Of a stretch of 64,000 nt of DNA, positions 593-59,748 are shown piece by piece (positions within the stretch are counted from its first letter, which is position 1; the number at the start of each line of letters is the position of its first letter). Below the pieces are notes generated by a model. It saw nothing but the letters and a program-made list of their open reading frames with translations. It was not told the origin of the DNA and searched no databases. The DNA is from Haliotis rufescens. Taxonomy: Eukaryota. The stretch lies in the NCBI RefSeq assembly GCF_023055435.1, contig NW_025964223.1:35650001-35714000 (forward strand). The letters run 5' to 3'. The position numbers were made by a program, and so were the translations under genes.

Positions 593-1468
593 TTAATCCA
601 ACCTTTACCTTAATCCAATCAAACAGCAAATAGCACTGCTTATTAGCACTGAGTAGAGCACTTCTGTAAAAACAATAAACAGTGTTTTTTCTAAAACACA
701 ACACAGTTTAAATGTGTATTCTGTTGACTGACATGAAGGAAGTTCAAAGGCAATAAAATAATTGAACCAACAAGAATTCCCTGATTGGTATGCAGAGGTG
801 TCAACAAGCTTGAAGGCAAATGACAGGACAAAGGCTATAGATCTGAGGAGTGTGATGAAGCCTATCTGTGCGAATTGGGTCATGTCAGCCTTTCACAAAG
901 TGTTGCATGGGTGGCATCTGTCTGGACAGCTGGAGTGTTCAGTGATGCCTAGTTTGACACAAGTGGGTAGAACTCTTGACCCCAGCAGTGATAAGTCACC
1001 GGATGCCTATTGTGTAATTCCTATTTCTATTCTTTGAATGACATTGTTATATACTTGTTACAACTGCTGCTCAATAAACCGTGTTTGTGTTTATATTCAA
1101 ACTGGTATTTCCACTATCCAAAGTGTGTAGTGACTCGCTCTTATTGTTGATAGTAATATTGGAGACATAAATGCGAAGTTTAATAAATGCAAACAAAGAC
1201 TACTTGCATTTTTCGCATTAAATTCACGCTCGCATTAATTTCAAGGTTTACAGTATTATCTGGTGTTTGGTGGAGTATTGAACAACTGGTTTGTGATAAA
1301 CAAAGTCTTGTATAAGCAATTGTGAAGAAAGGTTGGGCAGACAGGGTGATGGTCATGTGCATGTAAATTTTACTGATATTGCAAGAGATGCTGCATGTGT
1401 ATGTACGCTAGATAAAACATTATTTTGTAGACCCCTGTAGACACTGTCTTCTTATGGCTTAAACTGTC

Positions 1469-1846
1469 TTCACATATGATAAATGTAGAACATACACTGT
1501 CTTTACATTGATTTATGTTGCATATACTGTCCTCACGTGGGATATATGTAGCACATACACTGTCTTCCCGTGGGATATGTGTAGCACATACACTGTCCTC
1601 ACATGGGCTATATATAGCACATACACTGTCTTCACATGGGATATATGTAGCACATATACTGTCTTCCCGTGGGATATGTGTAGCACATACACTGTCCTCA
1701 CATGGGATATATATAGCACATACACTGTCTTCCCGTTGGATATATGTAGAACATACTGTCCTCACATGTGATATATGTGGTACATACACTGTCTTCACAT
1801 GGGATATATGTAGCACATACACTGTCTGCACATGGGATATATGTAG
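1469..1846. repeat. 33-bp minisatellite, about 11 copies (catacactgtcttcacatgggatatatgtagca)
   Basis: Direct tandem units visible; overlapping ORFs show 11-aa periodicity. Confidence 0.9.
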
Positions 1847-2161
1847 TATGTCACATGTCATTAGATTAGGTGATGTTTGCATGAAATCAAAATCTGTAGG
1901 ACAGCTGGCAGAACATACAACAACATCTACAGTCTTCAGGCACAATCGGAATATGTCCCTTCGGTTTGGGGATCTCATTGTAAATGCTGAATAATACTTT
2001 AGCCTGGTTCTTGACTTTGTTGTGTCTATAATGTATTGTTGACACAGTACGTAGTAAAATTGTTGCCTTAATTGATCCTTTTACCTTGTCTTTTGTGCAA
2101 TCTGCTGATATCTAGGAATGAGAGAATAACTGTGACCATTTATTGTCTGCCAGCTGAGAGT

Positions 2162-5553: not shown

Positions 5554-7266
5554 ACCAGGTTGTGGGAGAATGTTTTCAAGGAATTGCATTTGAAACTTCC
5601 CTTATACAAATATTTTCTTGTGAAGTTGTGTAGTTTGTTATGTCGTAACTTTTATTTATTGTTTAAAATACTTGATTACATTGTCGATTTATGTCCTACT
5701 GTCTCTTGAAATGAAAATCCATCAAGCATTCTTATATTGTGATTCCACAGTGTTCTCTACATTTGATGACATGTCCCTGCCTCAGTAGGCTCAATGTTGT
5801 GGTCTTCATGTGATTATTGTTACAAGTATGAAATAATTCAAGTGTCAACCATCTTTATGATGATTGGCAGAATTACACCAGCTATTTTTATTATTGTTTC
5901 ACCTTATCGGAACACCATCATTCTGTTCTGAATAACATCACATATTTACATTTCAGTCCTCTTTTATCCCTTTATCCTGTGATCACACCAACAATTAGGA
6001 TATATTTTTAGATGTTTTTATGGAGTACAAGTGATACTGCAATCATTCCTGGCACATGGTGACTGTCATGTTTTCCTGGAGTACCACAAGTTGTGGGTTA
6101 TATACAAGCCAGAGGATAAGTGTACTGCACTGTGCCTGTCCCACAGATCCCTCCATACTCTGTGCTATGCAGTTGTCTGTACACCAACAGGGAACATGTT
6201 GACTTGTTAACAGATTAATATTTGTTTGTTCATGTACAAGAGTGAATATAAGTACTGTTATTTGGTATGTTTGTGTCTGAAGTGAAGTGTGTTGATGTTT
6301 TGTGTTGATCCATTGAGACCCTAAATATTGCATTCCCCCGAGGGCAGTTTTAGGTTCTGGTCATCCAACCTGACACTGGCTTTTATGCTCCGTGGAGCTG
6401 ATTTGGTAACGTATGTATGAAATTAAGTAAAAGCACAAATGATATTCTATAAGAAAATGTGGATGAGAAAGGTGAAGATGTTTCTGAGGTCGCCCACCAG
6501 TAAAGTAAGGTATATCATTGCAACATTACAATTTCAGGTTAATTGACTTCCTAAATATTATGCCTTCTCTTAAAAAAAGATAGTGCTTGTTATAGGATGA
6601 GTGTTCATCTGATCTGAATCCTCTATTCATTGTAGCATTTGCTAGATCCCATAACAAATATCCTAATTCTGATGATTTTTAGAAAAGATTATTAGAAGCA
6701 ATCCTAATGAACCATTTATGAGTAGAATAAATGAAAAATGCTGTGGGGCAGGTGTCACATGAAGCTACAGCTTGGTCAGATGAAACCTCATGTAAGCTGA
6801 ACCTATGCTGCTGGTAATTCAGGCCACACAGTATATCTTCACATCTGGTCATGACAAGCTTGTGGGCCTACAAGCCTCACTTGTGACACATACATATGGC
6901 ATGTGCTTACTGTTAATACATGGGATACCAATGGTCAGGGTCACAGTTTACAATCCCACCTATTTATTTATATTTTACCCCTTTTTTTTCTTCATGGCTT
7001 TTGCAGAATCCTACGTACACATGCATACTGATACCCTATGGTTAAATGGTATATAGCCAATAGCTGAAAGTCAATTGTTTGTGGTTGGGGGAACTTCAGA
7101 TTCGGACACAAAGCTTACTTATGAAACTGTTCAAAATGAAACATGAAGTGTTTTGTTGGGCCAGCTCTGTGAATGTATGCACAATTTGGTCATGTTTACA
7201 GCACCATCACTTATTGTTGGCCATGTCACTCAGTCTATTCTAAGCTTCTCTGTATTGTGTGTAATG

Positions 7267-7272
7267 AATAAA
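7267..7272 (+). promoter_or_regulatory. Candidate poly(A) signal for the small + strand gene
   Basis: AATAAA followed about 20 nt later by a GT/T-rich tract (tgtttcattgtttttgtt). Assignment to this gene is inference. Confidence 0.3.
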
Positions 7273-7827
7273 GAGGATTGACACCAAATGTTTCATTGTT
7301 TTTGTTCGACAGATCCTGAAACAGAAATAATTAACTTATGGATTTAAACTTTTGTTTCAATGTGAACTTGATGTCACTCTTGACCTTTTCAGACCTGTGT
7401 CCTGCCATAATGATGAAAGATACCAAGTTTCATTAACTAACAGAAAATCTTTGAATTAGTCAGGAAAGTTTTTGACCTGCAGGACGACCTTACAACTTGA
7501 CATATCAATGTGCAAATATTATTTCCTAGGGTTGTAAAGGAGACACATAATCTGATTGTGTGTCATTACAAGGGAGACGTGTACCAAGTTGCGTTGATGT
7601 ACAGTAAATACTTTTTGAATTATCAGGCCTCCATGATGATCTTGAATACCTATGACATGATGTGTCAAACATTTCCCAGGTTATAAAGGAGATAGCACTC
7701 CATGGATACTAGTGTCATATTATGTATATGTGGCTACTTATATATTGGCTTTTGAATGTGCTCAATTCAACATTCAGGGAATTGCATGAAGAAAGCCATG
7801 ATTGTAATGTAAGCAATTGGTTGCTTT

Positions 7828-7937
7828 GACACCGCTTTTAGCAATATCACAACTACGGACACCAGAAATGGGCAATAAAACCCTGGTCTTCAGCATGACG
7901 CGCGAGTGCTCTAACCATGAGGCTACACAACCGCCTC
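7828..7937 (-). mobile_element. Degenerate tRNA-derived SINE fragment
   Basis: Reverse complement begins ggcggttgtgtagcctcatggttagagcactcgcgcgtcatgctgaagaccagggttt, an A-box-like tRNA head. Confidence 0.45.
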
Positions 7938-8263
7938 TTTGTAACAATAATAATCATGACAGCAAACAAATGATAAGCATTGGGAATTCACTCTGACAGG
8001 TTGCTAATGATCTCAACAAACCAATGTGTGATTTCAGTGTGGAAGATCCCTGTACTGCTAAAAGTTTACCTCAACCCCATTCTTCATTTCTGGGATGAAC
8101 TTGAAAGTCATGTGAGCCAACATCTTGTAATATCTTTCAATCTGGACTGTCTGTTTGCAGCATTGCAAGACACAAGCCATTGATTAGTAACCTCATCCAG
8201 TGCATGGTCAGACAATTTGACATGACAACACATAGACATTAATTACATTGTAAAAACAGCACG

Positions 8264-8269
8264 TTTATT
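8264..8269 (-). promoter_or_regulatory. Candidate poly(A) signal of TMEM39
   Basis: AATAAA on the - strand about 60 nt after the TMEM39 stop codon. Confidence 0.45.
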
Positions 8270-8331
8270 ACATTACTGACATGTTCCACAACAAAAACTG
8301 CAATTGCTACATGGCAACACAGTATCTGAGG

Positions 8332-8559
8332 CTAAGAGTTGCTGTTAATACTCTCTTCTTCCTTGTAGCACTTGGCCATAATGAACCTGTCCCTCATCAG
8401 TTTAAATAATGTATAGTAGTTACAGAACAGAATGAGAGCCAGGCAGATGATGTGACTCCACTCCATGCACTGCAGCAAGCGGAAAAACTGATATGCCACC
8501 AACAACCAGGCCAAGATTAGCAACCAGTTGATAACCCGAAGTGGCTTGTGAAACAGGAA
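8332..8559 (-). CDS. TMEM39: TMEM39-family membrane protein, last coding exon
   Basis: FLFHKPLRVINWLL...YQFFRLLQCMEWSHIICLALILFCNYYTLFKLMRDRFIMAKCY...stop matches the TMEM39A/B C-terminus. Acceptor ttttgcag, phase 0. Confidence 0.93.
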   Translation of the reverse strand, partial: FLFHKPLRVINWLLILAWLLVAYQFFRLLQCMEWSHIICLALILFCNYYTLFKLMRDRFIMAKCYKEEESINSNS

Positions 8560-8794
8560 CTGCAAAATTAAAAAAAAATATGAAAAAAAGACACTCGCTG
8601 GTAATGTGGCATTGTTTGTAGTACTCAGCACATATCCAATATAACTACATGTGTGCTTTGTAAGCATTTTCATAAACTACTGAACACTTGTCTTGAATCA
8701 TATTGTTCTTACAAAGGGGCCCATGTTTCACAAGGTATTAATTATGGTAATAAACATACATATTCCAACAATTGAAAGAAAATATTCCACTTAC

Positions 8795-8915
8795 ATAAAA
8801 TCTGCCATGCATGCTGTTTCCTGGTTCAGCTGTGACATTTATACCTTCAGCTTTAAACAAACCCCTGACATGTTTGACTAGAGCACCTTGTGGCCACACC
8901 TGCAGCTCCGACCAC
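8795..8915 (-). CDS. TMEM39: TMEM39 exon (121 nt)
   Basis: Hand-translated WSELQVWPQGALVKHVRGLFKAEGINVTAEPGNSMHGRFY; flanked by tgtttcag and gtaagt; phases fit the neighbouring exons. Confidence 0.93.
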
Positions 8916-8916
8916 C

Positions 8917-11900
8917 TGAAACAGAAGACATACAGGGGCTACAGAGTGAGATCAGACACACAGGGACTGTACACCAACAGCAGACATACAGGGACTACAC
9001 TGTGAGAGCAGACATACAGGGTGTATCCAGTGACATCATACATACAGAGTTACAGCAGACATACAAGGTGTATCCAGTGACACCAGACATACAGGAGCTA
9101 CACAGTTACAGCAGACATACAGTGTGTATCCAGTGACACCAGACATACAGGGTGTATCCAGTGACACCAGACATACAGGGTGTATCCAGTGACACCAGAC
9201 ATACAGGGTGTATCCAGTGACACCAGACATACAGGAGCTACACAGTTACAGCAGACATACAAGGTGTATCTAGTGACACCAGACATACAGGGTGTATCCA
9301 GTGACGCCAGGCATACAGGGTGTATCCAGTGACATCAGACATACAGGGACTACACAGTGAACACCAGACATACAAGGTGTAACAAGTGACAGCAGACATA
9401 CAGGGTGTATCCAGTGACGCCAGGCATACAGGGTGTATCCAGTGACACCAGACATACAGGGACTACACAGTGAACACCAGACATACAGGGACTACACAGT
9501 GAACACCAGACATACAGTTTGTATCCAGTAACATCAGACATACAGGGACTACACAGTGACAGCAGACGTACAGGGTGTATCCAGTGACAGCAGACATACA
9601 GGGACTACACAGTGACACCAGACTTACAAGGTGTATCCAGTGACACCAGACATACAGGGTGTATCCAGTGACACTAGACATACAGTGTGTATCCAGTGAC
9701 ACCAGACATACAGGGTGTATCTAGTGACACCAGACATACAGGGGCTACACAGTTACAGCAGACATACAGGGTGTATCCAGTGACACCATACAGTTTGTAT
9801 CCAGTGACATCAGATGTACAGGGACTAAACAGTGACAGCAGACGTACAGGGTGTATCCAGTGAAAGCAGACGTACAGGGACTACACAGTGACAGCAGACA
9901 TACAGGGTGTATCCAGTGACAGCAGACATACAGGGACTACACATTGACAGCAGACATACAGGGACTACACAGTGAACACCAGACATACAAGGTGTATCCA
10001 GTAACAGCAGACATACAAGGCATATCCAGTGACAGCAGACATACAGGGTGTATCCAGTGACAGCAGACATACAGGGACTACACAGTGACACCAGACATAC
10101 AAGGTGTATCCAGTGACACCATGCATACAGGGTGTATCCAGTGACACCAGACATACAGGGTGTATCCAGTGACACCAGACATACAGGGGCTACACAGTTA
10201 CATCAGACATACAGTGTGTATCCAGTGACACCAGACATACAGGGTGTATCTAGTGACACCAGACATACAGGGGCTACACAGTTACAGCAGACATACAGGG
10301 TGTATCCATTGACACCAGACATACAGGGTGTATCCAGTGACACCATACAGTTTGTATCCAGTGACATCAGATGTACAGGGACTAAACAGTGACAGCAGAC
10401 GTACAGGTTGTATCCAGTGACAGCAGACGTACAGGGAATACACAGTGACAGCAGACATACAGGGTGTATCCAGTGACAGCAGACATGCAGGGACTACACA
10501 GTGACAGCAGACATAAAGGGCGTATCCAGTGACAGCAGACATACAGGGTGTATCCAGTGACAGCAGACATACAGGGACTTCACAGTGACAGCAGACATAC
10601 AGGGACTACACAGTGAACACCAGACATACAGGGTGTATCCAGTGACAGCAGACATACATGGCGTATCCAGTGACAGCAGACATACAGGGTGTATCCAGTG
10701 ACACCAGACATACAGGGTGTATCCAGTGACACCAGACATACAGGGACTACACAGTGACAGCAGACATACAGGGACTACACAGTGAACACCAGACATACAG
10801 GGTGTATCCAGTGACATCAGAAATACAGGGCATATCCAGTGACAGACATACAGGGTGTATCCAGTGACACCAGACATACAGGGTGTATCCAGTGACACCA
10901 GACATACAGGGGCTACACAGTTACAGCAGACATACAGGGACTACACAGTGACAGCAGACATACATGGACTACACAGTGACAGCAGGCATACAGGGACTAC
11001 ACAGTGACAGCAAGCATACAAAGGCTACACAGTGACAGCAGACATACAAAGGCTACACAGTGACAGCAGGCATACAGGGACTACACAGTGACAGCAGACA
11101 TACAGGACTACACAGTGACAGCAGACATACATGGACTACACAGTGACAGCAGACATACAAAGGCTACACAGTGACAGCAGACATACAAAGGCTACACAGC
11201 GACAGGAGGCATACAGGGACTACACAGTGACAGCAGACATACAGGGACTTCACAGTGACAGCAGGCATACAGGGGCTACACAGTGACAGCAGACATTCAG
11301 AGCCTACACAGTGACAGCAGACATACATGGTGTATCCAGTGACAGCAGACATACAGGGTGTATCCAGGGACAGCAGACATACAGGGCCTTCACAGTGACA
11401 GCAGACATACAGGGACTTCACAGTGAACACCAAACATACAGGGTGTATCCAGTGACATCAGAAATACAGGGCATATCCAGTGACAGACATACAGGGTGTA
11501 TCCAGTGACACCAGACATACAGGGTGTATCCAGTGACACCAGACATACAGGGGCTACACAGTTACAGCAGACATACAGGGGCTACACAGTGACCCAAGAT
11601 GTACAGGGTGTATCCAGTGACATCAGACATACAGGGACTACACAGTGACAGCAGACATACAGGGTGTATCCAGTGACAGCAGACATACATGGTGTATCCA
11701 GTGTCAGCAGATGTACAGGGACTACACAGTGACAGCAGACGTACAGGGTGTATCCAGTGACAGGAGACATACAGGGACTACACAGTGACAGCAGACATAC
11801 AGGGACTACACAGTGACAGCAGACATACAGGGGCTACATAGTGACAGCAGACATACAAGGGCTACACAGTGACAGCAGACATACAGGGTGTATAGAGTGA

Positions 11901-14900
11901 CAGCAGACATACAGGGACTACACAGTGACAGCAGGCATACAGGGACTACACAGTGACAGCAGACATACAGGACTACACAGTGACAGCAGACATACATGGA
12001 CTACACAGTGACAGCAGACATACAGGGGCTACACAGTGACAGCAGACATACAAAGGCTACACAGTGACAGGAGGCATACAGGGACTACACAGTGACAGCA
12101 GACATACAGGGCATATCCAGTGACAGCAGGCATACAGGGGCTACACAGTGACAGCAGACATTCAGAGACTACACAGTGACAGCAGACATACATGGTGTAT
12201 CCAGTGACAGCAGACATACAGGGTGTATCCAGGGACAGCAGACATACAGGGACTTCACAGTGACAGCAGACATACAGGGACTTCACAGTGAACACCAGAC
12301 ATACAGGGTGTATCCAGTGACATCAGAAATACAGGGCATATCCAGTGACAGACATACAGGGTGTATCCAGTGACACCAGACATACAGGGTGTATCCAGTG
12401 ACACCAGACATACAGGGGCTACACAGTTACAGCAGACATACAGGGGCTACACAGTTACCCAAGATGTACAGGGTGTATCCAGTGACATCAGACATACAGG
12501 GACTACACAGTGACAGCAGACATACAGGGTGTATCCAGTGACAGCAGACATACATGGTGTATCCAGTGTCAGCAGATGTACAGGGACTACACAGTGACAG
12601 CAGACGTACAGGGTGTATCCAGTGACAGGAGACATACAGGGACTACACAGTGACAGCAGACATACAGGGACTACACAGTGACAGCAGACATACAGGGGCT
12701 ACATAGTGACAGCAGACATACAAGGGCTACACAGTGACAGCAGACATACAGGGTGTATAGAGTGACAGCAGACATACAGGCACTACACAGTGACAGCAGA
12801 CATACAGGGTGTATACAGTGACAGCAGACATACAGGGACTACACAGTGACAGCAGACATACAGGGGCTACACAGTGACAGCAGACATACAAAGGCTACAC
12901 AGTGAACACTAGACGTACAGTTTGTATCCAGTGACATCAGATGTACAGGGTGTATCAAGTGACACTAGATATACAGGATGTATCAAGTGACAGCAGACAT
13001 ACAGGGACTACACAGTGACAGCAGGCATACAGGGACTACACAGTGACAGCAAGCATACAAAGGCTACACAGTGACAGCAGACATACAAAGGCTACACAGT
13101 GAGAGCAGGCATACAGGGACTACACAGTGACAGCAGACATACAGGACTACACAGTGACAGCAGACATACAGGGACTACACAGTGACAGCAGACATACAAA
13201 GGCTACACAGTGACAGCAGACATACAAAGGCTACACAGTGACAGGAGGCATACAGGGACTACACAGTGACAGCAGACATACAGGGACTACACAGTGACAG
13301 CAGGCATACAGGGGCTACACAGTGACAGCAGACATTCAGAGACTACACAGTGACAGCAGACATACATGGTGTATCCAGTGACAGCAGACATACAGGGTGT
13401 ATCCAGGGACAGCAGACATACAGGGACTTCACAGTGACAGCAGACATACAGGGACTTCACAGTGAACACCAGACATACAGGGTGTATCCAGTGACATCAG
13501 AAATACAGGGCATATCCAGTGACAGACATACAGGGTGTATCCAGTGACACCAGACATACAGGGTGTATCCAGTGACACCAGACATACAGGGGCTACACAG
13601 TTACAGCAGACATACAGGGGCTACACAGTGACCCAAGACGTACAGGGTGTATCCAGTGACATCAGACATACAGGGACTACACAGTGACAGCAGACATACA
13701 GGGTGTATCCAGTGACAGCAGACATACATGGTGTATCCAGTGACAGCAGATGTACAGGGACTACACAGTGACAGCAGACGTACAGGGTGTATCCAGTGAC
13801 AGGAGACATACAGGGACTACACAGTGACAGCAGACATACAGGGACTACACAGTGACAGCAGACATACAGGGGCTACATAGTGACAGCAGACATACAAGGG
13901 CTACACAGTGACAGCAGACATACAGGGTGTATACAGTGAAAGCAGACATACAGGGACTACACAGTGACAGCAGACATACAGGGTGTATACAGTGACAGCA
14001 GACATACAGGGACTACACAGTGACAGCAGACATACAGGGGCTACACAGTGACAGCAGACATACAAAGGCTACACAGTGACAGCAGACATACAGGGGCTAC
14101 ACAGTGACAGCAGACATACAAAGGCTACACAGTGAACACTAGACGTACAGTTTGTATCCAGTGACATCAGATGTACAGGGTGTATCAAGTGACACCAGAT
14201 ATACAGGATGTATCAAGTGACAGCAGACATACAGGGACTACACAGTGACAGCAGACATACAGGGACTACACAGTGACAGCAGACATACAGGGGCTACACA
14301 GTGACCCAAGACATACAGGGTGTATCCAGTGACATCAGACATACAGGGACTACACAGTGACAGCAGACATACAGGGTGTATCCGATGACAGCAGACATAC
14401 ATGGTGTATCCAGTGACAGCAGATGTACAGGGACTACACAGTGACAGCAGACATACATGGACTACACAGTGACAGGAGACATACAAAGGCTACACAGTGA
14501 CAGTAGGCATACAGGGACTACACAGTGACAGCAGACATACAGGGACTACACAGTGACAGCAGACATACATGGACTACACAGTGACAGCAGGCATACAGGG
14601 ACTACACAGTGACAGCAAGCATACAAAGGCTACACAGTGACAGCAGACATACAAAGGCTACACAGTGACAGCAGGCATACAGGGACTACACAGTGACAGG
14701 AGACATACAAAGGCTACACAGTGACAGTAGGCATACAGGGACTACACAGTGACAGCAGACATACAGGGACTACACAGTGACAGCAGACATACATGGACTA
14801 CACAGTGACAGCAGGCATACAGGGACTACACAGTGACAGCAAGCATACAAAGGCTACACAGTGACAGCAGACATACAAAGGCTACACAGTGACAGCAGGC

Positions 14901-16298
14901 ATACAGGGACTACACAGTGACAGCAGACATACAGGACTACACAGTGACAGCAGACATACATGGACTACACAGTGACAGCAGACATACAAAGGCTACACAG
15001 TGACAGCAGACATACAAAGGCTACACAGTGACAGGAGGCATACAGGGACTACACAGTGACAGCAGACATACAGGGACTACACAGTGACAGCTGGCATACA
15101 GGGGCTGCACAGTGACAGCAGACATTCAGAGACCACACAGTGACAGCAGACATATAGGGACTACACAGTGACAGGGGGCATACAGGGACTACACAGTGAC
15201 AGCAGACATACATGGACTACACAGTGACAGCAGACATACAGGGACTACACAGTGACAGTAGACATACAAAGGTTACACAGTGACAGCAGGCATACAGGGA
15301 CTACACAGTGACAGCAGACATACAGGGACTACACAGTGACAGCAGACATACAGGGACTACACAGTTACAGCAGACATACAAAGGCTACACAGTGACAGCA
15401 GGCATACAGGGACTACACAGTGACAGCAGACATACAGGGACTACACAGTGACAGCAGACATACAGGGACTACACAGTGACAGCAGGCATACAGGGACTAC
15501 ACAGTGACAGCAGACATACAAAGGCTACACAGTGACAGCAGGCATACAGGGACTACACAGTGACAGCAGACATACATGGACTTGAAGTGACAGCAGGCAT
15601 ACAGGGACTACACAGTGACAGCAGGCATACAAAGGCTACACAGTGACAGCAGACATACAAAGGCTACACAGTGACAGCAGGCATACAGGGACTACACAGT
15701 GACAGCAGACATACAGGACTACACAGTGACAGCAGACATACATGGACTACACAGTGACAGCAGACATACAAAGGCTACACAGTGACAGCAGACATACAAA
15801 GGCTACACAGTGACAGGGGGCATACAGGGACTACACAGTGACAGCAGACATACAGGGACTACACAGTGACAGCAGGCATACAGGGGCTACACAGTGACAG
15901 CAGACATTCAGAGACTACACAGTGACAGCAGACATACAGGGACTACACAGTGACAGCAGACATACAGGGGCTACACAGTGAAAGCAGACATACAGGGACT
16001 ACACAGTGACAGCAGACATACAGGGACTACACAGTGACAGCAGACATACATGGACTACACAGTGACAGCAGACATACATGGACTACACAGTGACAGCAGA
16101 CATACAAAGGCTACACAGTGACAGCAGGCATACAGGGACTACACAGTGACAGCAGACATACAGGGACTACACAGTGACAGCAGACATACAGGGACTACAC
16201 AGTGACAGCAGACATACAGGGACTACACAGTGACAGCAGGCATACAGGGACTACACAGTGACAGAAGACATACAAAGGCTACACAGTGACAGCAGACA
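8917..16298. repeat. 28-bp minisatellite, about 260 units, two unit types, with higher-order blocks
   Basis: Type A acagcagacatacagggactacacagtg and type B acaccagacatacagggtgtatccagtg. A marker variant recurs at about 10820, 11461, 12326 and 13500. Confidence 0.97.
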
Positions 16299-33882: not shown

Positions 33883-35778
33883 ATATGTTACTGTTTTGCT
33901 GACATTTTATTAATGTATAGTTTATTGCTCCATGCCTGAGATATTGTCTAACTTGTAGCTCACTCACTTATCAAAAATGAAAAATTGTTTACACGTAGCT
34001 TAACATCACTACGAAGTTGATATCAATATAATTTATGGGAAAACATACCATAGGTCTTAAGTCCTGCTCAGGAATTAATGCTCAAATGTACTGACCCAAA
34101 GTCCTCCCTGGTTGGCTACATGAACATGTTAATAACACACAGTAAGTTGTGCACTAACAGCAATGGTGACAAGTGAACGAAACTGACAAAATAATAATTC
34201 AGCTCTCTTCTGAAGCAGAGAAAATATAGGAAAAACAACAGAGAAAGAATTACCATACAACAAATGTGCCACTTTCTACAAGAGGCAATGAACATCATAT
34301 TTGTGCCAGAAGAACTGGGAGGGAATACTGAATGTGACGTGACAGAGGCCATGCTGCCAGACACTGTGGGGAGACAGTCAAGGAATATATACATACTATT
34401 CACATGCAGAAAACAACCTGTCATATCGTTTCATTGCCTTGGAATTCATTAATGTACAAGATTTTGAAACCACTTTGTGGACAATTGTTTGATTCTTCAC
34501 CAAACATTGATTAGTTTCGATACTTGGAGCTAAACAAAGCAATGAGATATACAATACAATCAAAGTATTCTGGGATAAACAGAACATTCCAAGTGTCCAC
34601 GAGAAACTTGCATTGGTGCAATTTCTTAAAATAAGTATGCACACCTTTTATCACCAGAAGTCATTATCCTCCATACCCACAGCTTGTTACAACTTTAACA
34701 GATACTGTGAGTTTGGCATAGCACCACTTTGAACAGAATTTCACTGATATAGATTCTGGTTGATGGCAGAGGACACCCCCAAGTGATGCAGATCTTAGAT
34801 GTTCAACGTTCTGGTGCACAGATATATTCAGGGGGAAATCTGGGTTTCATTCTGGGTATCCTCTGATGCTTAATTGTAAATATATAATGTCATATTTCTG
34901 TGATTACAACAGGCAAAAGTCCAAACTAACATGATGAATTTGTAAAGTTTCATGGAGAAATAAGGAAAGAAATAAGAAAATATGAGAATCAAACTTTAGC
35001 CTCATTTGACAAATGTTGGAAAACATTAATAACACTTGTGAACATCCTAAGGCAGCAGGTGAGCACTTGCCTGATGTGTACACACAGTGTCCACACCGAA
35101 TCACTGACTGCTCTGTAACATGCAGTAGAAGCTGCACCCTCATGGAACCTTGCTTTAGAAATACAAAAATAGGAAATTCAAAACTTCCCGAACAGCAAAA
35201 GGTACCAGTGGAAGATTTCAACAGAGAACTATATGATCTGGAATCTATGGAAGCGTATAAGTGCCACAGTCTAAAACTAAAAACAAGTATCACCTATGTA
35301 GATGAAAGCGTCATCAATGTAGAAGATACTATAATCTATGTAGATGATACTGCTCACATCTACGTACAAGATACTTCCATCTCGGAATCAATATTTTCTC
35401 GAGTAATCGACACTAGTTCCGGGTCAGTTATATATAACCACTGGCTTAATTAATAATGACCAATTTGCATGACTTTCTAACTTGACATGTCTTAACTAAG
35501 GTATTATCTTAACATTGCATAAAGTAAATCTTCATTTCAATATGTGGAAGTTACTGGAGAATGACACATGCCATACTCTCTTACAACTGTAATAAAGATA
35601 GGATACCATAAAATGTTCTCCAAACTACAAACAAATAAACAGCTATAGGTCATTACTCAAAATTTTAGCAAAATTATAGATCAACCATAACATGGTTAAA
35701 GCCGGAGGAATATGTTGATCCTCATGATTTCTCCATTATCGAAATTAGGTTTAAGAGGTAAAACGTGAATATGAAGGG

Positions 35779-37572
35779 GTGAGAATCATCTACATAGATG
35801 TAAGAATCATCTATGAAGATGTAAGTATCATCTATGTAGATTTAACTATCATCTACGTAGATGTAAGTATCATCTATGTAGATGTAAGTATCATCTACGT
35901 AGATTTAAGTATCATCTATGTAGATGTAAGTATCATCTACAAAGATGTAGGTATCATGTACGTAGATGTAAGTATCATCTACATAATTGTAAGTATCATC
36001 TATGTAGATGTAAGTATCATCTACGTAGATGTAAGAATCTTCTATGTAGATGTAAGTATCATCTATGTAGATGTAAGTATCATCTATGTAGATGTAAGTA
36101 TCATCTATGTAGATGTAAGAATCTTCTATGTAGATGTAGGTAACATCTATGTAGATGTAAGTATCATCTATGTAGATGTAAGTATCATCTACGTAGATGT
36201 AAGAATCTTCTATGTAGATGTAGGTAACATCTATGTAGATGTAAGTATCATCTACGTAGATGTAAGTATCATCTATGTAGATGTAAGTATCATCTACATA
36301 GATGTAAGTATCATCTACGTAGATGTAAGTATCATCTACGTAGATGTAAGTATCATCTACGTAGATGTAAGTATCATCTACGTAGATGTAAGTATCATCT
36401 ATGTAGATGTAGGTCACATCTATGTAGATGTAAGTATCATCTATGTAGATGTAAGTATCATCTACGTAGATGTAAGTATCATTTATGTAGATGTAGGTCA
36501 CATCTATGTAGATGTAAGTATCATCTATGTAGATGTAAGTATCATCTACGTAGATGTAAGTATCATCTACGTAGATGTTAGTATCATCTACGTAGATGTA
36601 AGTATCATCTATGTAGATGTAAGTATCATCTACGTAAGTATCATCTACGTAGATGTAAGTATCATATACGTAGATGTAAGAATCATCTACGTAGATGTAA
36701 GTATCATCTATGTAGATGTAAGTCTCTATGTAGATGTAGGTCACATCTATGTAGATGTAAGTATCATCTACGTAGATGTAAGTATCATCTATGTAGATGT
36801 GAGTATAATGTTTGTAGATGTAAAAATCTTCTATGTAGATGTAAGTATCATCAATGTAGATGACATAATCATCTACATAGATGTAAGTATCATCTACATA
36901 GATGTAAGTATCATCTGTGTAGATGTAAGTATCATCTATGTAGATGTAGGTAACATCTATGTAGATGTAGGTATCATCTATGTAGATGTAAGTATCATCT
37001 ATGTAGATGTAGGTAACATCTATGTAGATGTAGGTAAAATCTATGTAGATGTAGGTATCATCTATGTAGATGTAACTATCATCTACGTAGATGAAAGTAT
37101 TATCTATGTAGATGTAAGTATCATATATGTAGATGTAAGTATCATCTATGTAGATGTAAGAATCATCTACAAAGATGTAAGTATCATCTACGTAGATGAA
37201 AGTATTATCTATGTAGATGTAAGTATCATATATGCTGATGTAAGTATTATCTATGTAGATGTAAGTATCATATATGTAGATGTAAGTATTATCTATGTAG
37301 ATGTAAGTATCATATATGTAGATGAAAGTATTATCTATGTAGATGTAAGTATCATATATGCTGATGTAAGTATTATCTATGTAGATGTAAGTATCATATA
37401 TGTAGATGTAAGTATTATCTATGTAGATGTAAGTATCATCTATGTAGATGAAAGTATTATCTATGTAGATGTAAGAATCTTCTATGTAGATGTAAGAATC
37501 TTCTATGTAGATGTAAGAATCTTCTATGTAGATGTAAGAATCTTCTATGTAGATGTAAGAATCTTCTATGTA
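35779..37572. repeat. 21-bp minisatellite, about 85 units (gtaagtatcatctaygtagat)
   Basis: Tandem array; residual units at 37701-37753 and degenerate units at about 35284-35375. Confidence 0.97.
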
Positions 37573-37700
37573 GGTGAGGTGAGGTGAAATGGGGATTAAC
37601 GTCGCATCCAAGATTATTGCACTTATATAGCGACGTGCATGCACGTGTATGTGTGTGTGACCGCTTGTACTAGTCGGGACTGATGCCGATTTATAGTGCT
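37573..37700 (-). mobile_element. 5'-truncated copy of the 29667-30017 SINE inserted into the 21-bp array
   Basis: Closely matches 29667-29790, including the (cacct)n tail. Confidence 0.9.
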
Positions 37701-38526
37701 TACATAGTTGTAAGTATCATCTACGTAGATGAAAGTATTATCTATGTAGATGGCACTAATACGCTTCCATAGGAAACTAAACATGACTGACTGACTATTT
37801 AAATATCCTTGTCAAGCAATTGCGTGGGTTGATTTATTTAACACTAATTGGACTAAATGAAGGGGGGTGGCGATTCTAGGAGCAAATTTCATTATTTGAT
37901 TTGGTAACTGGCTTTTATAATGTTGAAAGAACAGTAATGTCTGGTATGTTACCGGTAGTTATAGTACAGGATTAGTGTGAAATGTCTCCTTTGTTGTTAC
38001 AGGTGTAACTGTTTTAGTAACAGCCACTTTACATTCTCCACTGATAGTTCAAATATTCAAGCAAGTGAACAGGCAGGCTCACTGGCCCAAGGTGCTGGCC
38101 AGCAGACAGTTGTCTTCTGATGCTGATCACACTCTCATTATGTTACACCGGTACCAAAGTCAAGTCTCAATCTTCATTTTCTTATTTACAATTTGTGAAT
38201 GAAGAGAACTTTACTTGTAGTCAGCAATAACCAAGTTATACCACAGTGGCATGTGGTGCGGTCCACCACACATAGCACTGAAGCTAACACAGTATACACA
38301 GTAAGTACTCTACTACACAGACTGTGATGGGGCACTTCTGGCAGAACTGTGGTCATGATATTCAGTTAAAGATAAGGCACAAGTAACTGGACATTATTAA
38401 ACAAATAATTTATGAGCCAGCGAATATCATTATTTGTAATGTACATGTTTGTATGTTCAGTGACCTGTACGTTACTTGACTTAAAATACAGCATCAAATT
38501 ATCAAAGTACTTACTAATCAGATTAA

Positions 38527-40598: not shown

Positions 40599-42254
40599 TT
40601 AATAGATAAATAAATAAAAATAAATACAACACAAATAGGCTGCACGGACACGTCATGCAGTACACTCATAAAACATGAGAATCTTTAACTTCGTGCTTCG
40701 ATATCAGTGCTGCATTTGAACACTTGAACATACTGCATGTGCATTTTGTGCTATTTGATTGTTGTTCCAGTACATTCGCAATACATGTGCTTAGAATTAA
40801 TGCATGAGCTTAACATTTACACTGCAGAAAGTAGCTAAAAAACTGTCAATTCCTACAAACAATGTATAGTTGAAACAATAGAGTATTATAATTCTCAATA
40901 ATCTATGTATCATGGTGTCATCTATCAGAGCAGTTCAAAGCAAAATGTTTGCCTAACAGACCTTAGCTTTCTCATAATACCATTTCCACATTTACCTGAC
41001 TGTTGCCAGACTGTGTTGATATTGTGTTTGTCATGTGAATAAACTACAATATAGTTCTAATAGGGATTTACTACTGAGATGTCTGGCAAGCTGAGTGTAC
41101 CCACAACCCTGTCGACTTACAGCTGATAAACATAGTGTACTGAGTTCAGTGTCAGTCTTGGCATCCACACTTAGAATAATCAACTCCTTAAACAGTTTGA
41201 GAACTCTAAAAATGTAACAATATTAAAACTGAACTATTTACTCAAATAAGAACACAGTAACAGCAACAACAACAACGACAACAATGAGAGCAACTGGCAA
41301 TGACCAGTCTCCATGGCAACTTACCCAGCATGTATCACAGTTGTTCTGCACATTCTAGATTGCAGGTTGAAATTAACAAGATTGACATGAACATGATGAA
41401 AACCCTACAATGTCACCAAAAACTATTCCTGATACAAGCATGTATGGCAGAACACCATAGCTTATCATAATGCGAACAAAGCAACAGGTGACACGAGTGC
41501 ATAAGTGACGCAAACTCCCTAACTCAGTAGGAAATTACTTTATGTAGAGTTTCATGAACGATGTCATGATGCCGTGTTAAGAAAAATCTTATTACGATAA
41601 AGTTAATGAATACAAATGTATGAAAGATGCAAGGTGCAATCTATGACTTCTGAGACACAGAAAGGCAAGACATATTGATCACCAAGCAAAACAAGCATAT
41701 TGTTAAAAGAAAGGATGCATCATTAAATCTGTAGAGTGTGATCAATATTAACCCTAAATGTGATCACCATGTGCAGTTTTGAAATTAGCCACTAGGTATT
41801 ACACATAGAAAGCAACATCTATAGTCCATCCCCAATATGATCCAGGGATCAAAATTAAATTTATTTCAAGTGTGCCAATGGGCACATTTATGCCAAATTA
41901 AGTGTGACATCACATTTTTAGATGTGCCAGGAAATACACGATTGGCTTCACACATCACTCAAGTTACTAATTTCTGGTTACTCATTGCCTTTGAATCTTA
42001 GTTAGATACTGCAATACCAATTATAATAGTCTCAAAATTAAAGAGCTACTGGCTGTCATATAGCTGGAATATTGCTGAGTGTGGCGTTTAACAACAAACA
42101 CATACACATAAGAGCTACTGTTCACAACTGGTAGTAGCTGTGCACTGATCAGTTACAGTTGTAGCTGTTCTGCGTCCATAGGGTGTGGTCCCTCTTCTGG
42201 CCTATTCCCCCCTGTATGCACTGAGCCACAGTCATCAACTTTTGACAGTGTCTG

Positions 42255-43271: not shown

Positions 43272-43554
43272 CTGTGCAAAGCAGAGGGGCACAAAGGCCA
43301 TATAGTATGCTGTCAACATGGAGTTAAAAAGAACTTGCTTCACTCGGTTATTGAAGTCATTTTTGAGTGCTTCCACCTCCTCCCTGACAATGTCTGGTGT
43401 GAGTGTACAGTTATGGTAGAGCACTGACTCCCTCTCCAGGGGGCGGTGTTTGGCCACACTCTTGTCCCCATATGTGGCTGTACGTGGCCATGCATGCTGT
43501 CTCTGGTAAAGTGGTTTCAAGGTGGGCCCAAACAGTATCAAATAAGTTGCTAGT
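43272..43554 (-). CDS. TMEM39: TMEM39 exon (283 nt)
   Basis: LATYLILFG...[48 protein letters not shown], the conserved TMEM39 block; flanked by tgtttcag and gtatgt. Confidence 0.95.
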
Positions 43555-55130: not shown

Positions 55131-55816
55131 AACAAGAGTTTGCCACTAACGTGGCTATATCCCCCGCCCCTGTTGCAGAATTTATGACATAATTAAATCT
55201 AAACAGACCCTAACCTTTTTTAACCGAGGTGGAAATTGTAAAAAAAAGAAGAGTTTGGAACCAAAGTCCATCTTGCTGCCATGGAAACGTAAAAAATAAA
55301 AATTTCTAAAATTTCTAAATAGCAAAAGGCACCAGTTCAGCATGTACCTGACAAACCTGCAAAGTTTGATGAAAAAAATTGAACGGTTTATGAGTGATGC
55401 TCCGGAAACGAACCCTACACTTGCAGAACCTAAGTCCATCTTGCTGCCATGGAAACGTAAAAAAATATAAATTTCTAAAATTTCTAAATAGCAAAAGGCA
55501 CCAGTTCAGCATGTACCTGACAAACCTGCAAAGTTTGATGAAAAAATATTGAACGGTTTATGAGTTATGCTCCGGAAACGAACCCTACACTTGCAGAACC
55601 TAAGTCCATCTTGTTGCGATGGAAACGTAAAAAATAAAAATTTCTAAAATTTCTAAATAGCAAAAGGCACCAGTTCAGCATGTACCTGACAGACCTGCAA
55701 AGTTTGATGAAAAATATTGAATGGTTTATGAGTTATGCTCCGGAAACGAAACGTGATGGACAGATGGATGGAGCCCGTTTCTATATCCCCCGCCAACTTT
55801 GTTGGGCGGGGGATAA
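55131..55816. mobile_element. Helentron-associated non-autonomous element (HINE-like) with about 3 internal 170-bp tandem units
   Basis: Starts aacaag, motif tatatcccccgcc near both ends, gatgga microsatellite, terminal hairpin cccccgcc-aactttgttg-ggcggggg. Absent from the homologous empty site near 42360. Confidence 0.7.
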
Positions 55817-56757: not shown

Positions 56758-57600
56758 AACAAGCATGAAATACTCATATCCCCCGCCAATATGACATGTC
56801 TGGTTGTGTCCAATGCATTATTAGCTCCTGTGAACTATGTTCACTGGGCCTTTTTGTAAATGGCCTAATTGCTGCACTAAAAAAAGTTATTACTGGTGTT
56901 GTTTTGACATCTGCAGTTTATGATAGAATATGTAAAAGTATTTGTAATGAGTAAGAATGAAACATATGGACAAACAACTTCTTTATTACAATTAGGATTG
57001 CTGGTTTCGGTGTAGGTTCTAACACCGTTATCAAGCAAGTGAAGTACAGAGTATGGTTGACAAGAAAATATATACAGAATAGGAAGTTAGTCAGTGAATG
57101 CAACAACCGTGTCCATGACACTTTTGGAGGAACATACACACAAGCAATGCAGAACTTACCAACAAGAAAGGAAATGTATTCAATACTGTGAGATGACATT
57201 ATGTGCCAAGTTTGGTGAAGAAATATGGTACGGTTTTCAAGATCTGCTCCGGAAACCAGGACTACCGCCATTTTCAGTCTAAGTCAAAGTCGTTGCCATG
57301 GAAACTCGAAAAATAATTTCTTTAAAAATCCCAAACTATCAAAAGGTACCAGTTCACCACTAGACCTATCTATGTGCCAAGTTTGGTGAAGAAATATGGT
57401 ACGGTTTTCAAGATCTGCTCCGGAAACAAGGACTACCGCCATTTTCAGTCTAAGTCAAAGTCGTTACCATGGAAACTAAAAAAATATTTTTTTTAAATCC
57501 CAAACTATCAAAAGGCACCAGTTCACCACTAGACCTATCTATGTGCCAAGTTTGGTGAAGAAATATGGTACGGTTTTCAAGATCTGTTCCGGAAACAAGG
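56758..57600. mobile_element. Second HINE-like element, truncated, with about 170-bp tandem units
   Basis: aacaag...atatcccccgcc start; units at about 57202, 57373, 57542 share ccatggaaac, aaaaggcaccagttca and gctccggaaac with the 55131 element. Confidence 0.6.
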
Positions 57601-58058
57601 AAGCCAAAAGCCATACGCTTTTTCCGTGTCAGTGGATATCATGTGACCTAATGCATTCAAACAGCTGTTTTCTATCGATCTTGTTTACTGTTTGTAAGCT
57701 GCACTTGAGAACGAGGCTTGGTTTTTACGGTGAAAAGATCCCTCACTGTTAATGACTCCAGGAATATTCTGACATGTTGTTATTTTAACTGCTGCCTTTA
57801 CAATATGTACTAAACATGCTAAATAGTTGTTTTATTTGTCGAAAGTTGGGATTGGCAAAAAGTAGGGGGGAATGGTAATTTTAAGAGTTGCCAGTCCACA
57901 AGGACTGGCAGTTTCAAAAGCCAGCGGGAACACCTTGTATGAAAAGTCACTGTTTGAGATCAACCAATCAGCAATCATGAAAGGAAAACATCTTCCCCAT
58001 GCTTCTTTACCAATGAAAACAAATTTTGGAATTACAATACTCAAATAATAGCAAAGCT

Positions 58059-58527
58059 AGAGGTGAGTGCCTGTCATGTATAGGGAATACATATAGACAG
58101 CAGAGGAAGAGGAGAGTGCCTGTCATGTATAGGGAATACATATAGACAGCAGAGGAAGAGGAGAGTGCCTGTCATGTATAGGGAATACTTACAGACAGCA
58201 GAGGAAGAGGAGAGTGCCTGTCATGTATAGGGAATACATATAGACAGCAGAGGAAGAGGAGAGTGCCTGTCATGTATAGGGAATACTTAGACAGCAGAGA
58301 AAGAGGAGAGTGCCTGTCATGTATAGGGAATACTTAGACAGCAGAGGAAGAGGAGTGTACCTGTCATGTATAGGGAATACATATAGACAGCAGAGGAAGA
58401 GGAGAGTGCCTGTCGTGAATAGGGAATACTTAGACACCAGAGAAAGAGGAGAGTGCCTGTCATGTATAGGGAATACTTAGACACCAGAGAAAGAGGAGAG
58501 TGCCTGTCATGTATAGGGAATACTTAC
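58059..58527. repeat. 47/49-bp minisatellite, 9 copies plus the genuine exon/donor junction
   Basis: Units start at 58068, 58117, 58166, 58215, 58264, 58311, 58358, 58407, 58454 and 58501. Confidence 0.95.
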
Positions 58528-58682
58528 GGATAGCACAGGAAGAGGCAGTACAGTGGGGAGTGCTGGATGACAACATTGTAGCCTGTGTAGATGAGTAGAG
58601 TGGCCACTGTGCCCACCACCACAACCTTCACTAGCTGTACCAGCCAGAACAGTACACCCTTGTATGTCCGACTCCCGTACAC
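58528..58682 (-). CDS. TMEM39: TMEM39 exon (155 nt), the most 5' exon found in the window
   Basis: VYGSRTYKGVLFWLVQLVKVVVVGTVATLLIYTGYNVVIQHSPLYCLFLCYP, ending in the TMEM39 LFL.YP motif; flanked by gttacag and gtaagt; phase 2 fits the next exon. Confidence 0.88.
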
Positions 58683-59748
58683 CTGTAACATCAAACAGCT
58701 TCTGAACAAAAAACACAAACACAGCTGCAGCAAACAGGTTTTCTAGTAATGACTGTAATATGTTAACTGGTACTATTCTGTATATATACACAAAAACTAT
58801 TACCTTTTCCTGAATGCCCTAAACCATGCAACCAGGTATTAATACAAGAGTTCTCAAAGGCTAATGTTTGGCCCCAGATCTACAGCAAATTACAGGTATT
58901 ATCATCAATAATAATTAATGTTTTAGCTTTGCAATGGTGACTTGTATTTCACTAAAAATGGACCAATAAAGAGAAATGGTACTTGTTCCCTTTAATCATG
59001 CTAATACATAATTTAACATTAATACATTGATTGCATTCCTAAACTATCTGAATTAAAGGAAATAAAAACAGAGAAAACAATTTTGACAAAAGGAAACTTT
59101 TTTTTCCAAATTTTCCTGCAGGGCTCTTGGTTAAAATTGATGATAAATCCCTGTTCATTAAACATCAAATCAATGAAAGTAGCAAACTATTTCTTATCCA
59201 ATATCATTTGCAGTCACAAAATACAAATACAATGTATTAATCTTAAATTTGGCTATCTTGTATGCAGCCTATTATATGTAACAGTATAATAACTCTCAGA
59301 AATCACTACTGTTGGTAATACGTCACAGCTGTAGAAGGTTTTTGTCTTGTAGTCTATCTGATCGTCAATAACCTGCGGCATTGTGGGAATGAAATGAATG
59401 AAAATATGATCTGAAGTAAAGGGTATTCTACAATAGAATCACTTGTCTTATACTTGAACAATTAATCCTCAAACTAACTCTGTCAGGTGTAATTGCTTGA
59501 TCGCTTGTGGAAGCATGTATTGGATGATAATCACATCCCTGAATAAAAGGTATCATGATACGTGTCATATTTATGTATCATACACATCTTCTGGGGTTGT
59601 AAGTAGGATTTGTTGTTTGTTGGGACAAATCTCTGTAATTTACTACTATTTTAAGAGCATGAGTATCAGAATTATGTAAGAAATTATGGATCAATGAATT
59701 AACACCTGTCATGACTCAAAGCACTAAATGGTGGGACACAATCTATAA

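What the first reader, a model, noticed from the sequence alone, without database searches (positions are those of the whole stretch)
58059..58550. Minisatellite built from TMEM39's own exon/5' splice-site junction, with the GT lost in 8 of 9 copies
The 47/49-bp unit equals the last ~22 nt of the exon plus the first 27 nt of the intron (genuine sense strand: ctcttcctgtgctatcc|GTAAGTattccctatacatgacaggca). Copies lost the donor in two ways: substitution (gtaagt to atatgt, 49-bp units) or deletion of GT (47-bp units). Only the unit at 58187-58192 keeps GTAAGT. Using it would add 335 nt starting with an immediate in-frame TAA. Inference: the array grew from a splice site and selection favoured donor-dead variants; the surviving copy may be a decoy or poison donor, making splicing depend on array composition.
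Basis: partly seen in the sequence, partly recalled or inferred. Interest (0 to 1): 0.7.

Follow-up and report, generated by a model that had tools for sequence, protein, structure and literature searches.

The report
Splice-donor minisatellite in abalone TMEM39A
The end of one exon of an abalone TMEM39A gene and its splice signal are copied nine more times into the next intron, and eight copies have lost the signal, but similar repeats elsewhere in this genome mostly keep it, so this is likely an ordinary, tolerated repeat of a known kind ("mirage") rather than a splicing switch.

Summary
The 47/49-bp array (58059-58545, minus strand) starts 18 nt inside a TMEM39A exon; 8 of 9 copies lack the donor GT. 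Use of the intact copy would add 335 nt with an immediate stop. Assembled RNA joins the true donor in 4 of 4 runs laid. The interpretation mostly fails. The 8 losses are two sequence types, so one or two mutations spread by array turnover. In 255 sampled donors of this genome, 8 carry such arrays, and 8 clean comparison arrays keep GT in 204 of 221 copies. DNA contigs of a related organism label likely carry several GT-intact units, and RNA of that label splices normally. No junction at the intact copy was seen, but contigs cannot exclude one. Arrays lie about 2.5- to 3-fold more often at donors than length-aware random placement predicts; this is significant only in the looser intron set. This is a new member of the known junction-spanning ("mirage", F7/CBS-type) minisatellites. 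The scan has noted such arrays before, in this genome and in others. Locus-specific selection against rival donors stays possible (about 0.18).

The parts
58528..58682 (-). TMEM39A coding exon (155 nt, phase 0 in, phase 2 out) whose 3' end seeds the array
   Evidence: tblastn of P0001; RNA contigs cover 58528-58684 and join to both neighbours; splice sites
58520..58527 (-). True 5' splice site, intron side GTAAGTAT; the exon side (TCC) does not match the consensus
   Evidence: joint 43554/58528 in 4 of 4 runs; local PWM score 4.2, below the 5th percentile (4.7) of called donors
58524..58526 (-). In-frame TAA right after the donor G: any downstream donor would give a premature stop at codon 183 of the P0001 numbering
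   Evidence: translation; exon ends in codon 181-182
58059..58545 (-). Minisatellite: 1 true unit plus 9 copies of 47/49 bp
   Evidence: TRF; unit split
58497..58545 (-). Unit 0: the true exon/intron junction; differs from all nine copies at positions -9, -4 and -1
58403..58496 (-). Copies 1-2: 47-bp type (2 nt lost at the junction); each has a new weak GT site (58484, 58437)
58354..58402 (-). Copy 3: 49-bp ATATGT type, with a new donor-like site whose GT is at 58360 (PWM 7.0)
58260..58353 (-). Copies 4-5: 47-bp type
58211..58259 (-). Copy 6: 49-bp ATATGT type; predicted hairpin with a perfect 6-bp inner stem
58162..58210 (-). Copy 7: the only copy with GTAAGT intact (58192-58187), 335 nt downstream of the true donor
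58064..58161 (-). Copies 8-9: 49-bp ATATGT type
58059..58063 (-). 5-nt direct repeat (CCTCT) closing the array; the same 5 nt open it inside the exon at 58545-58541. Likely the microhomology of the seed duplication (inferred)
   Evidence: sequence
43272..43554 (-). Next exon (283 nt), the acceptor partner across a 14,973-nt intron

Best explanation
This is a junction-spanning ("mirage") minisatellite at a TMEM39A splice donor that likely arose by a local 49-bp duplication and is likely tolerated because the spliceosome uses the first donor, with the GT likely lost through one or two mutations that repeat turnover spread. Shown: the unit structure, the true junction in RNA contigs, the three fixed differences between unit 0 and all copies, and two GT-less unit types. 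Inferred: (1) the seed duplication used the two 5-nt direct repeats 49 nt apart; (2) slippage or unequal exchange then multiplied and homogenised the inner copies while the exon-bound unit stayed apart; (3) two derived changes (-4 A to G, +4 A to T) perfect an imperfect palindrome in the unit, so hairpin-templated mutation may explain part of the change at the donor without selection on splicing; (4) the upstream donor wins as in the F7 scanning model. The intact copy would then be a silent pseudo-site, not a regulator.
For: True junction in 4 of 4 runs laid, depths 49.8, 26.5, 70 and 125.4. Eight of 255 sampled donors have an array reaching 5 nt or more into the exon (3.1%, CI 1.4-6.1%). Eight clean comparison arrays keep GT in 204 of 221 copies; in L041 44 of 48 and in L147 52 of 60 copies have the same 9-mer as the true donor. 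L049 has an equally low-scoring donor (4.7) and keeps GT in 4 of 4 copies. Only two GT-less types exist, and the ATATGT type is two steps from either the intact or the 47-bp type, so GT may have been lost once (inference). With 8-12 mutational events in a 49-nt unit, a hit on the GT has probability 0.28-0.39 for at least one and 0.04-0.08 for at least two, before allowing that the locus was picked for this trait. In run X8 the unit-end variant appears only at 58162 and 58211, at depth about 224 each against about 62 for the flanks, and 6 of the 8 listed X8 contigs span 58187-58192; of 9 unit-pair types only pairs that include an intact unit are placed best there, so about 3-4 intact units per haploid set are inferred. 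In run X7 one 77-nt contig of the 47-bp type has depth 262 against 37-41 for the flanks, so composition differs among animals. DNA folding: unit 0 -2.0 kcal/mol (z -0.14), intact copy -4.6, 47-bp type -4.2, ATATGT type -6.1 (z -3.5). Precedents: PMC1557585, PMC3087553, PMC3902484.
Against: TMEM39A is the outlier: 1 of 9 copies keeps GT against 81-100% in all 8 comparison arrays. Its true donor has no exon-side match to the consensus and so rests on the very bases that are duplicated; 7 of the 8 comparison donors score 10-11.4. The first six copies are all GT-less at the homologous site. If GT was lost twice, the chance value is 0.04-0.08. The G-to-A change at +1 and the 2-nt deletion do not lower the folding energy relative to the intact copy in any clear way (47-bp type -4.2 against -4.6), the hairpin z-scores shrink to -0.4 to -1.9 when 1.5 units are folded, and hairpins are not a general trait of arrays here (mean z -0.11 in 143 arrays). 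The X8 reading rests on placement and mismatch counts; the contig letters were not printed, 4 of 6 contigs have 2-4 more differences than the model needs, and the RNA of label D is from other individuals.
Confidence: 0.72

Rival explanations
1. Locus-specific purifying selection: because the true donor depends only on its intron-side bases, exact copies nearby would compete with it and yield stop-codon transcripts, so GT-less unit types were favoured, above all in the proximal copies. The array has no function, but its composition is filtered.
For: True donor scores 4.2, below the 5th percentile; an in-frame stop follows at once; 8 of 9 copies and all of the first six are GT-less; run X7 shows about 7 copies of the GT-less 47-bp type. 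A title in the reference list of PMC1557585 reports that a substitution in the second CBS repeat prevents multiple alternate splicing (title only). Donor-spanning arrays outnumber acceptor-spanning ones 8 of 255 to 1 of 257 (Fisher p 0.02), which suggests that splicing does filter such arrays.
Against: L049 keeps GT in 4 of 4 copies behind an equally low-scoring donor (247-bp unit, donor call not checked by RNA). Intact units likely persist in several copies in X8. New GT sites arose in copies 1-3, scoring 4.5, 4.5 and 7.0 by the same PWM. One or two events are too few to show selection. The PWM treats positions as independent and probably under-rates a donor with a perfect intron side (recalled).
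Confidence: 0.18
2. Poison or decoy donor: the surviving copy is used at some rate, adds 335 nt with a stop, and sends part of the mRNA to nonsense-mediated decay, so array composition would tune TMEM39A level.
For: The geometry allows it: immediate stop and at least three downstream junctions. The intact copy's 9-mer scores like the true donor (3.8 against 4.2). The passage in PMC1557585 says that proximal pseudo-sites are used in 6-16 and CBS.
Against: The same passage says only the most upstream one or two pseudo-sites are used, and the intact copy is seventh. Array composition differs widely among X7, X8 and the window, which fits poorly with a conserved regulator. The intact copy's -3 to +2 bases are predicted paired (unpaired probability 0.05 or less, against 0.27-0.92 for the true donor).
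Confidence: 0.05
3. The copies were selected to fold: each unit would form an RNA hairpin that hides its pseudo-donor, and GT loss is a side product of hairpin improvement.
For: Copies fold better than unit 0 as RNA (-7.7 to -10.0 against -7.6 kcal/mol; z to -2.7); the fixed -4 change and the +4 change each add a base pair.
Against: A DNA-level templated mutation gives the same pattern with no selection. In 7 comparison arrays the copies fold better than the true unit in 3, equally in 2 and worse in 2. Predictions only.
Confidence: 0.05

Closest known systems
Amphioxus 'mirage' minisatellites (Adh3, globins BflGb6 and BflGb9, troponin C, PGBD5); PMC3087553 and PMC3902484, matching passages read
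   Same: Tandem copies of an exon-intron boundary; many but not all units keep splice signals; regular splicing is not disturbed; copy number differs between haplotypes; inner units are homogenised while the boundary unit stays apart.
   Different: A gastropod, not a cephalochordate; here only 1 of 9 copies keeps GT in this haplotype; somatic instability was not tested.
Human F7 intron 7 37-bp VNTR, with 6-16, CBS intron 13, lamin B2 and PDGF intron 4; PMC1557585, abstract and matching passages read
   Same: First unit spans the donor; pseudo-sites follow; the most upstream site is the one used (F7, lamin B2, PDGF).
   Different: F7 pseudo-sites are identical to the true site, while most copies here are dead. 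In 6-16 and CBS proximal pseudo-sites are used; no such use was seen here. The CBS paper (title only) is a precedent for a donor-altering change in a copy.
Internal tandem repeats at exon-intron boundaries of human genes in segmental duplications; PMC2812944, first part of Results read
   Same: Minisatellite-size units (average 30 bp) at exon-intron boundaries elongate introns; 27 intron modifications reported.
   Different: Found by comparing paralogs in recent duplications; TMEM39A matches at one main locus here.

Membership tests
Junction-spanning ('mirage', F7-type) minisatellite | First unit spans a real exon-intron boundary | tested here: met
   18 exon nt + 31 intron nt; junction confirmed in 4 of 4 runs
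Junction-spanning ('mirage', F7-type) minisatellite | Head-to-tail minisatellite-size copies run into the intron | tested here: met
   9 copies of 47/49 bp, 92% matches
Junction-spanning ('mirage', F7-type) minisatellite | Splice signal repeated in some (not necessarily all) copies | tested here: met
   1 of 9 copies here; likely more in X8
Junction-spanning ('mirage', F7-type) minisatellite | Regular splicing from the authentic site persists | tested here: met
   joint 43554/58528 in X15, X16, X18, X19; contigs show presence only
Junction-spanning ('mirage', F7-type) minisatellite | Concerted change of inner units, boundary unit excluded | tested here: met
   three positions (-9, -4, -1) differ between unit 0 and all 9 copies
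Junction-spanning ('mirage', F7-type) minisatellite | Copy number or composition varies between haplotypes | tested here: inconclusive
   X4, X7 and X8 show different unit mixes and depths, but they carry three organism labels and are unphased contigs
Junction-spanning ('mirage', F7-type) minisatellite | Somatic instability (reported for amphioxus Adh3) | not testable with these tools
   no single-animal long reads available
Poison (NMD-coupled) alternative 5' splice site | Use of the site creates a premature stop upstream of later junctions | tested here: met
   immediate TAA; downstream exons
Poison (NMD-coupled) alternative 5' splice site | The alternative junction is observed in RNA | tested here: inconclusive
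   not among the 15 of 174 joints shown; no loose end there in X15; contigs drop rare forms
Poison (NMD-coupled) alternative 5' splice site | Isoform rises when NMD is blocked | not testable with these tools
   no such run offered
Poison (NMD-coupled) alternative 5' splice site | Site conserved in position and number across haplotypes | tested here: inconclusive
   unit mixes differ among X4, X7, X8; order of units unknown

The most novel reading that the evidence does not exclude
Junction-spanning arrays act as a natural test of donor competition: behind strong donors they keep GT freely, but behind a donor that rests wholly on its intron-side bases, as here, selection purges GT from the proximal copies, and haplotypes that still carry intact copies leak TMEM39A mRNA into nonsense-mediated decay in proportion to their number and position.
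Probability: 0.1. Interest if true: 0.6.

Novelty: new member of a known kind. Interest (0 to 1): 0.17.

Why it matters
As a single locus it matters little: the kind is described in lancelets and humans and was noted many times by this scan. Two by-products have some value. About 3% of sampled abalone donors carry such arrays, many with dozens of exact pseudo-donors, which gives a large natural set for testing first-donor preference. And TMEM39A is the one GT-poor case beside 8 GT-rich ones, with an unusual donor, so it is the place to test whether donor strength decides if pseudo-donors are purged. If that held, a polymorphic repeat would tune gene output through decay of mis-spliced mRNA.

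Tried and rejected
RNA evidence for the intact copy: none of the 15 joints shown (159 not shown) lies at 58193, and X15 has no cover and no loose end there. X4 likewise has no contig over 58192-58216. These blanks are not evidence: contigs drop rare forms and a filter removes some records. X15 has an unspliced contig across the true donor (depth 14.7 against 49.8 spliced) and a 77-nt array contig (28.4); this could be nascent RNA or DNA and was not used. The kinase search returned mostly long single-exon matches; its 30 loci (L007-L036) were not analysed and only 35 short-exon matches of 134 were used. From the myosin search 33 of 124 matches were used (the tandem cluster on C113 and its relative on C336 were left out); from kinesin 118 of 124 (duplicate contigs C543, C553 dropped); from CCT 57 of 60; ALDH 15 of 15. 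The first enrichment estimate (rate ratio 3.9 near donors, p 8e-6) ignored array length and uncalled exons, so I replaced it with the length-aware test. L037, L077 and L132 were left out of the GT count because their copies could not be phased cleanly to the donor; L041 was added although TRF starts it 13 nt inside the intron, because its unit repeats the junction. For L049 and L069 I used the counts because picked one spurious copy in each. A general hairpin bias of arrays was tested and not found. An assembly artefact was considered and rejected: array units stand in DNA runs of three studies. The 6-16 paper (PMC306954) is not held. Five literature searches listed no paper on such arrays in abalone or other molluscs; one abalone paper mentions an intronic minisatellite without a link to splice sites (PMC6905558, passages). 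Supplements were not opened; those of PMC3087553 hold the mirage alignments.

Full report
Observation. TRF finds an array at 58059-58545, period 49, 10.1 copies. On the minus strand it splits into unit 0 (58545-58497: 18 exon nt and 31 intron nt) and nine copies. Four copies are 47 bp and lack 2 nt at the junction. Four are 49 bp and read ATATGT in place of GTAAGT. One (58192-58187) is intact. All nine copies share three differences from unit 0, at -9, -4 and -1. The gene is TMEM39 (PF10271), and the next exon is 100% identical over 94 aa to a Haliotis TMEM39A-like protein, so this is an abalone. The exon is 58682-58528. Contigs join 58528 to 43554 with GT..AG ends in 4 of 4 runs laid, at depths 49.8, 26.5, 70 and 125.4. 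Extension to the intact copy adds 335 nt and stops at once.

How it arose. The array opens inside the exon with a 5-nt word (58545-58541) and closes with the same word right after the last copy (58063-58059). A duplication between these two direct repeats, 49 nt apart, gives exactly this unit (inference). The unit is also an imperfect palindrome around a 5-nt loop. The fixed change at -4 and the change at +4 each add a base pair. Folded as DNA, unit 0 gives -2.0 kcal/mol (z -0.14), the intact copy -4.6, the 47-bp type -4.2 and the ATATGT type -6.1 (z -3.5); RNA folding shows the same order roughly. Hairpin-templated mutation (recalled mechanism) could thus explain part of the change around the donor. 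This is weak support: with 1.5 units folded the z-scores fall to -0.4 to -1.9, arrays in general show no hairpin bias (mean z -0.11 in 143 arrays), and the loss of the G itself adds no clear pairing.

How many losses. Eight GT-less copies are two sequence types. The ATATGT type is two steps from the intact type (two substitutions) and two steps from the 47-bp type (one substitution and a 2-nt duplication), so GT was lost once or twice. With 8-12 mutational events in the unit, at least one hit on the GT has probability 0.28-0.39 and at least two 0.04-0.08, before allowing for the fact that this locus was chosen for the trait.

Genome-wide test. I took 258 Pfam-matched exons (118 kinesin, 57 CCT, 35 kinase, 33 myosin, 15 ALDH) in 134 stretches, 1.29 Mb after merging. 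Splice sites were called by a locally trained weight matrix, not by RNA. Of 255 scored donors, 8 have an array reaching 5 nt or more into the exon (3.1%, CI 1.4-6.1%); of 257 acceptors, 1. Array starts are 3.9 times denser within -60 to +30 of donors than 100-3000 nt away, but that ignores array length. An earlier scan note (e1-9879696) reported no excess over random placement, so I ran a length-aware test. In 75 strictly consecutive introns, donor-spanning arrays number 3 against 1.1 expected (p 0.09) and near-donor arrays 5 against 2.1 (p 0.05). In all 139 bounded gaps, which may hide uncalled exons, the figures are 6 against 1.8 (p 0.009) and 10 against 3.6 (p 0.002). So such arrays are common, and the excess is about 2.5- to 3-fold but not firmly shown. 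The sample is small and limited to conserved genes.

GT retention. In the 8 comparison arrays that could be phased cleanly, GT is kept in 4/4 (L049), 17/19 (L069), 48/48 (L041), 23/27 (L064), 22/27 (L040), 4/4 (L039), 57/60 (L147) and 29/32 (L138): 204 of 221. Many copies equal the true donor over all nine positions. A general purge of donors does not occur. TMEM39A, at 1 of 9, is the outlier. Its donor scores 4.2, below the 5th percentile, because the exon side does not match; seven comparison donors score 10-11.4. The eighth, L049 (4.7), keeps all its GTs.

Other animals. DNA contigs of three runs were laid on 57960-58900. X7 (label C) shows one 77-nt contig of the 47-bp type at depth 262 against 37-41 for the flanks, about 7 copies. 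X4 (label A) shows 47-bp and ATATGT types. X8 (label D) piles depth on the intact copy (888 in the bin 58184-58215 against about 62), carries a unit-end variant only at the two borders of the intact copy at depth about 224 each, and has 6 listed contigs spanning the GT. Among nine unit-pair types only pairs with an intact unit are placed best at those borders, so about 3-4 intact units per haploid set are inferred. The letters were not printed and 4 of the 6 contigs carry 2-4 differences beyond the model. RNA-guess runs of label D (X16, X18) show the normal junction, in other individuals.

Poison donor. The geometry allows it, but nothing shows it. The blanks are not evidence. Against it: in the human cases described in PMC1557585 only the first one or two pseudo-sites are used (passage), the intact copy is seventh, and its -3 to +2 bases are predicted paired.

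What is known. PMC1557585 (abstract and passages) describes the F7 intron 7 VNTR and lists 6-16, CBS, lamin B2 and PDGF; it reports that the most upstream donor is selected by a scanning-type mechanism. Its reference list has a CBS title on a substitution in the second repeat that prevents multiple alternate splicing (title only). PMC3087553 and PMC3902484 (passages) describe amphioxus 'mirages': many but not all units keep splice signals, splicing is normal, inner units are homogenised and boundary units excluded. PMC2812944 (first part of Results) reports 27 intron modifications by boundary-spanning repeats in human duplications. Five searches listed no paper on such arrays in molluscs. The scan's own notes hold 54 findings with these words in at least 27 genomes and 29 fitting notes in this genome; they are unchecked and were used as leads only.

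Verdict. A real feature and a new member of a known kind. It works like a tolerated mirage repeat (0.72). Locus-specific selection against rival donors is the main rival (0.18); a poison donor (0.05) and selected RNA hairpins (0.05) are unlikely. Interest 0.17.

Noticed in passing
window 8921-16298: A second array in the same gene (28 bp x 264, 7.4 kb) ends 5 nt before the exon that starts at 8915; its last unit forms most of the pyrimidine tract but it does not include the AG.
   Followed up: partly
window 41325-41354 (-): A 30-nt optional exon (10 aa) with good splice sites; present in P0001 and P0033, absent in P0035.
   Followed up: partly
window 35785-37573, with degenerate relatives at 35312-35375 and 37701-37752: 21-bp x 86 array whose + strand unit contains GTAAGT; it is antisense to TMEM39A and far from its exons; no + strand exon was identified.
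   Followed up: no
window 58527, 28537, 8794: Three of five TMEM39A donors examined lack G at -1 and all three read GTAAGT.
   Followed up: no
genome sample, 255 donors and 257 acceptors: Arrays reach into the exon at 8 donors but 1 acceptor (Fisher p 0.02), while arrays ending 4 nt inside to 100 nt before an acceptor are in excess (9 observed, 3.2 expected in 75 strict introns, p 0.0009).
   Followed up: partly
L097 4081-6168; L077 4296-5604: One kinase exon has arrays on both sides (6 nt from the acceptor, 25 nt from the donor); one myosin intron is almost filled by two different arrays, one at each end.
   Followed up: no
window 55258-55750, 57200-57601; L005 3352-4291: Short arrays of a 169-172-bp repeat family; contigs of the RNA-guess runs pile on the window copies at depths in the thousands, so the family is abundant.
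   Followed up: no
L005 about 5700-10000 and L006 about 1400-1900 (minus strand): Long reading frames in the intron upstream of the seeded exon look like retroelement and DNA-transposase remnants (judged by eye from recall, not searched).
   Followed up: no
window 58060-58068 (+): A consensus-like donor motif on the + strand at the array's far end, antisense to the gene; probably chance.
   Followed up: no
G000 C113 about 12.86-14.29 Mb; C68 about 28.9-29.2 Mb: Tandem clusters of many myosin-head and kinase-domain copies.
   Followed up: no
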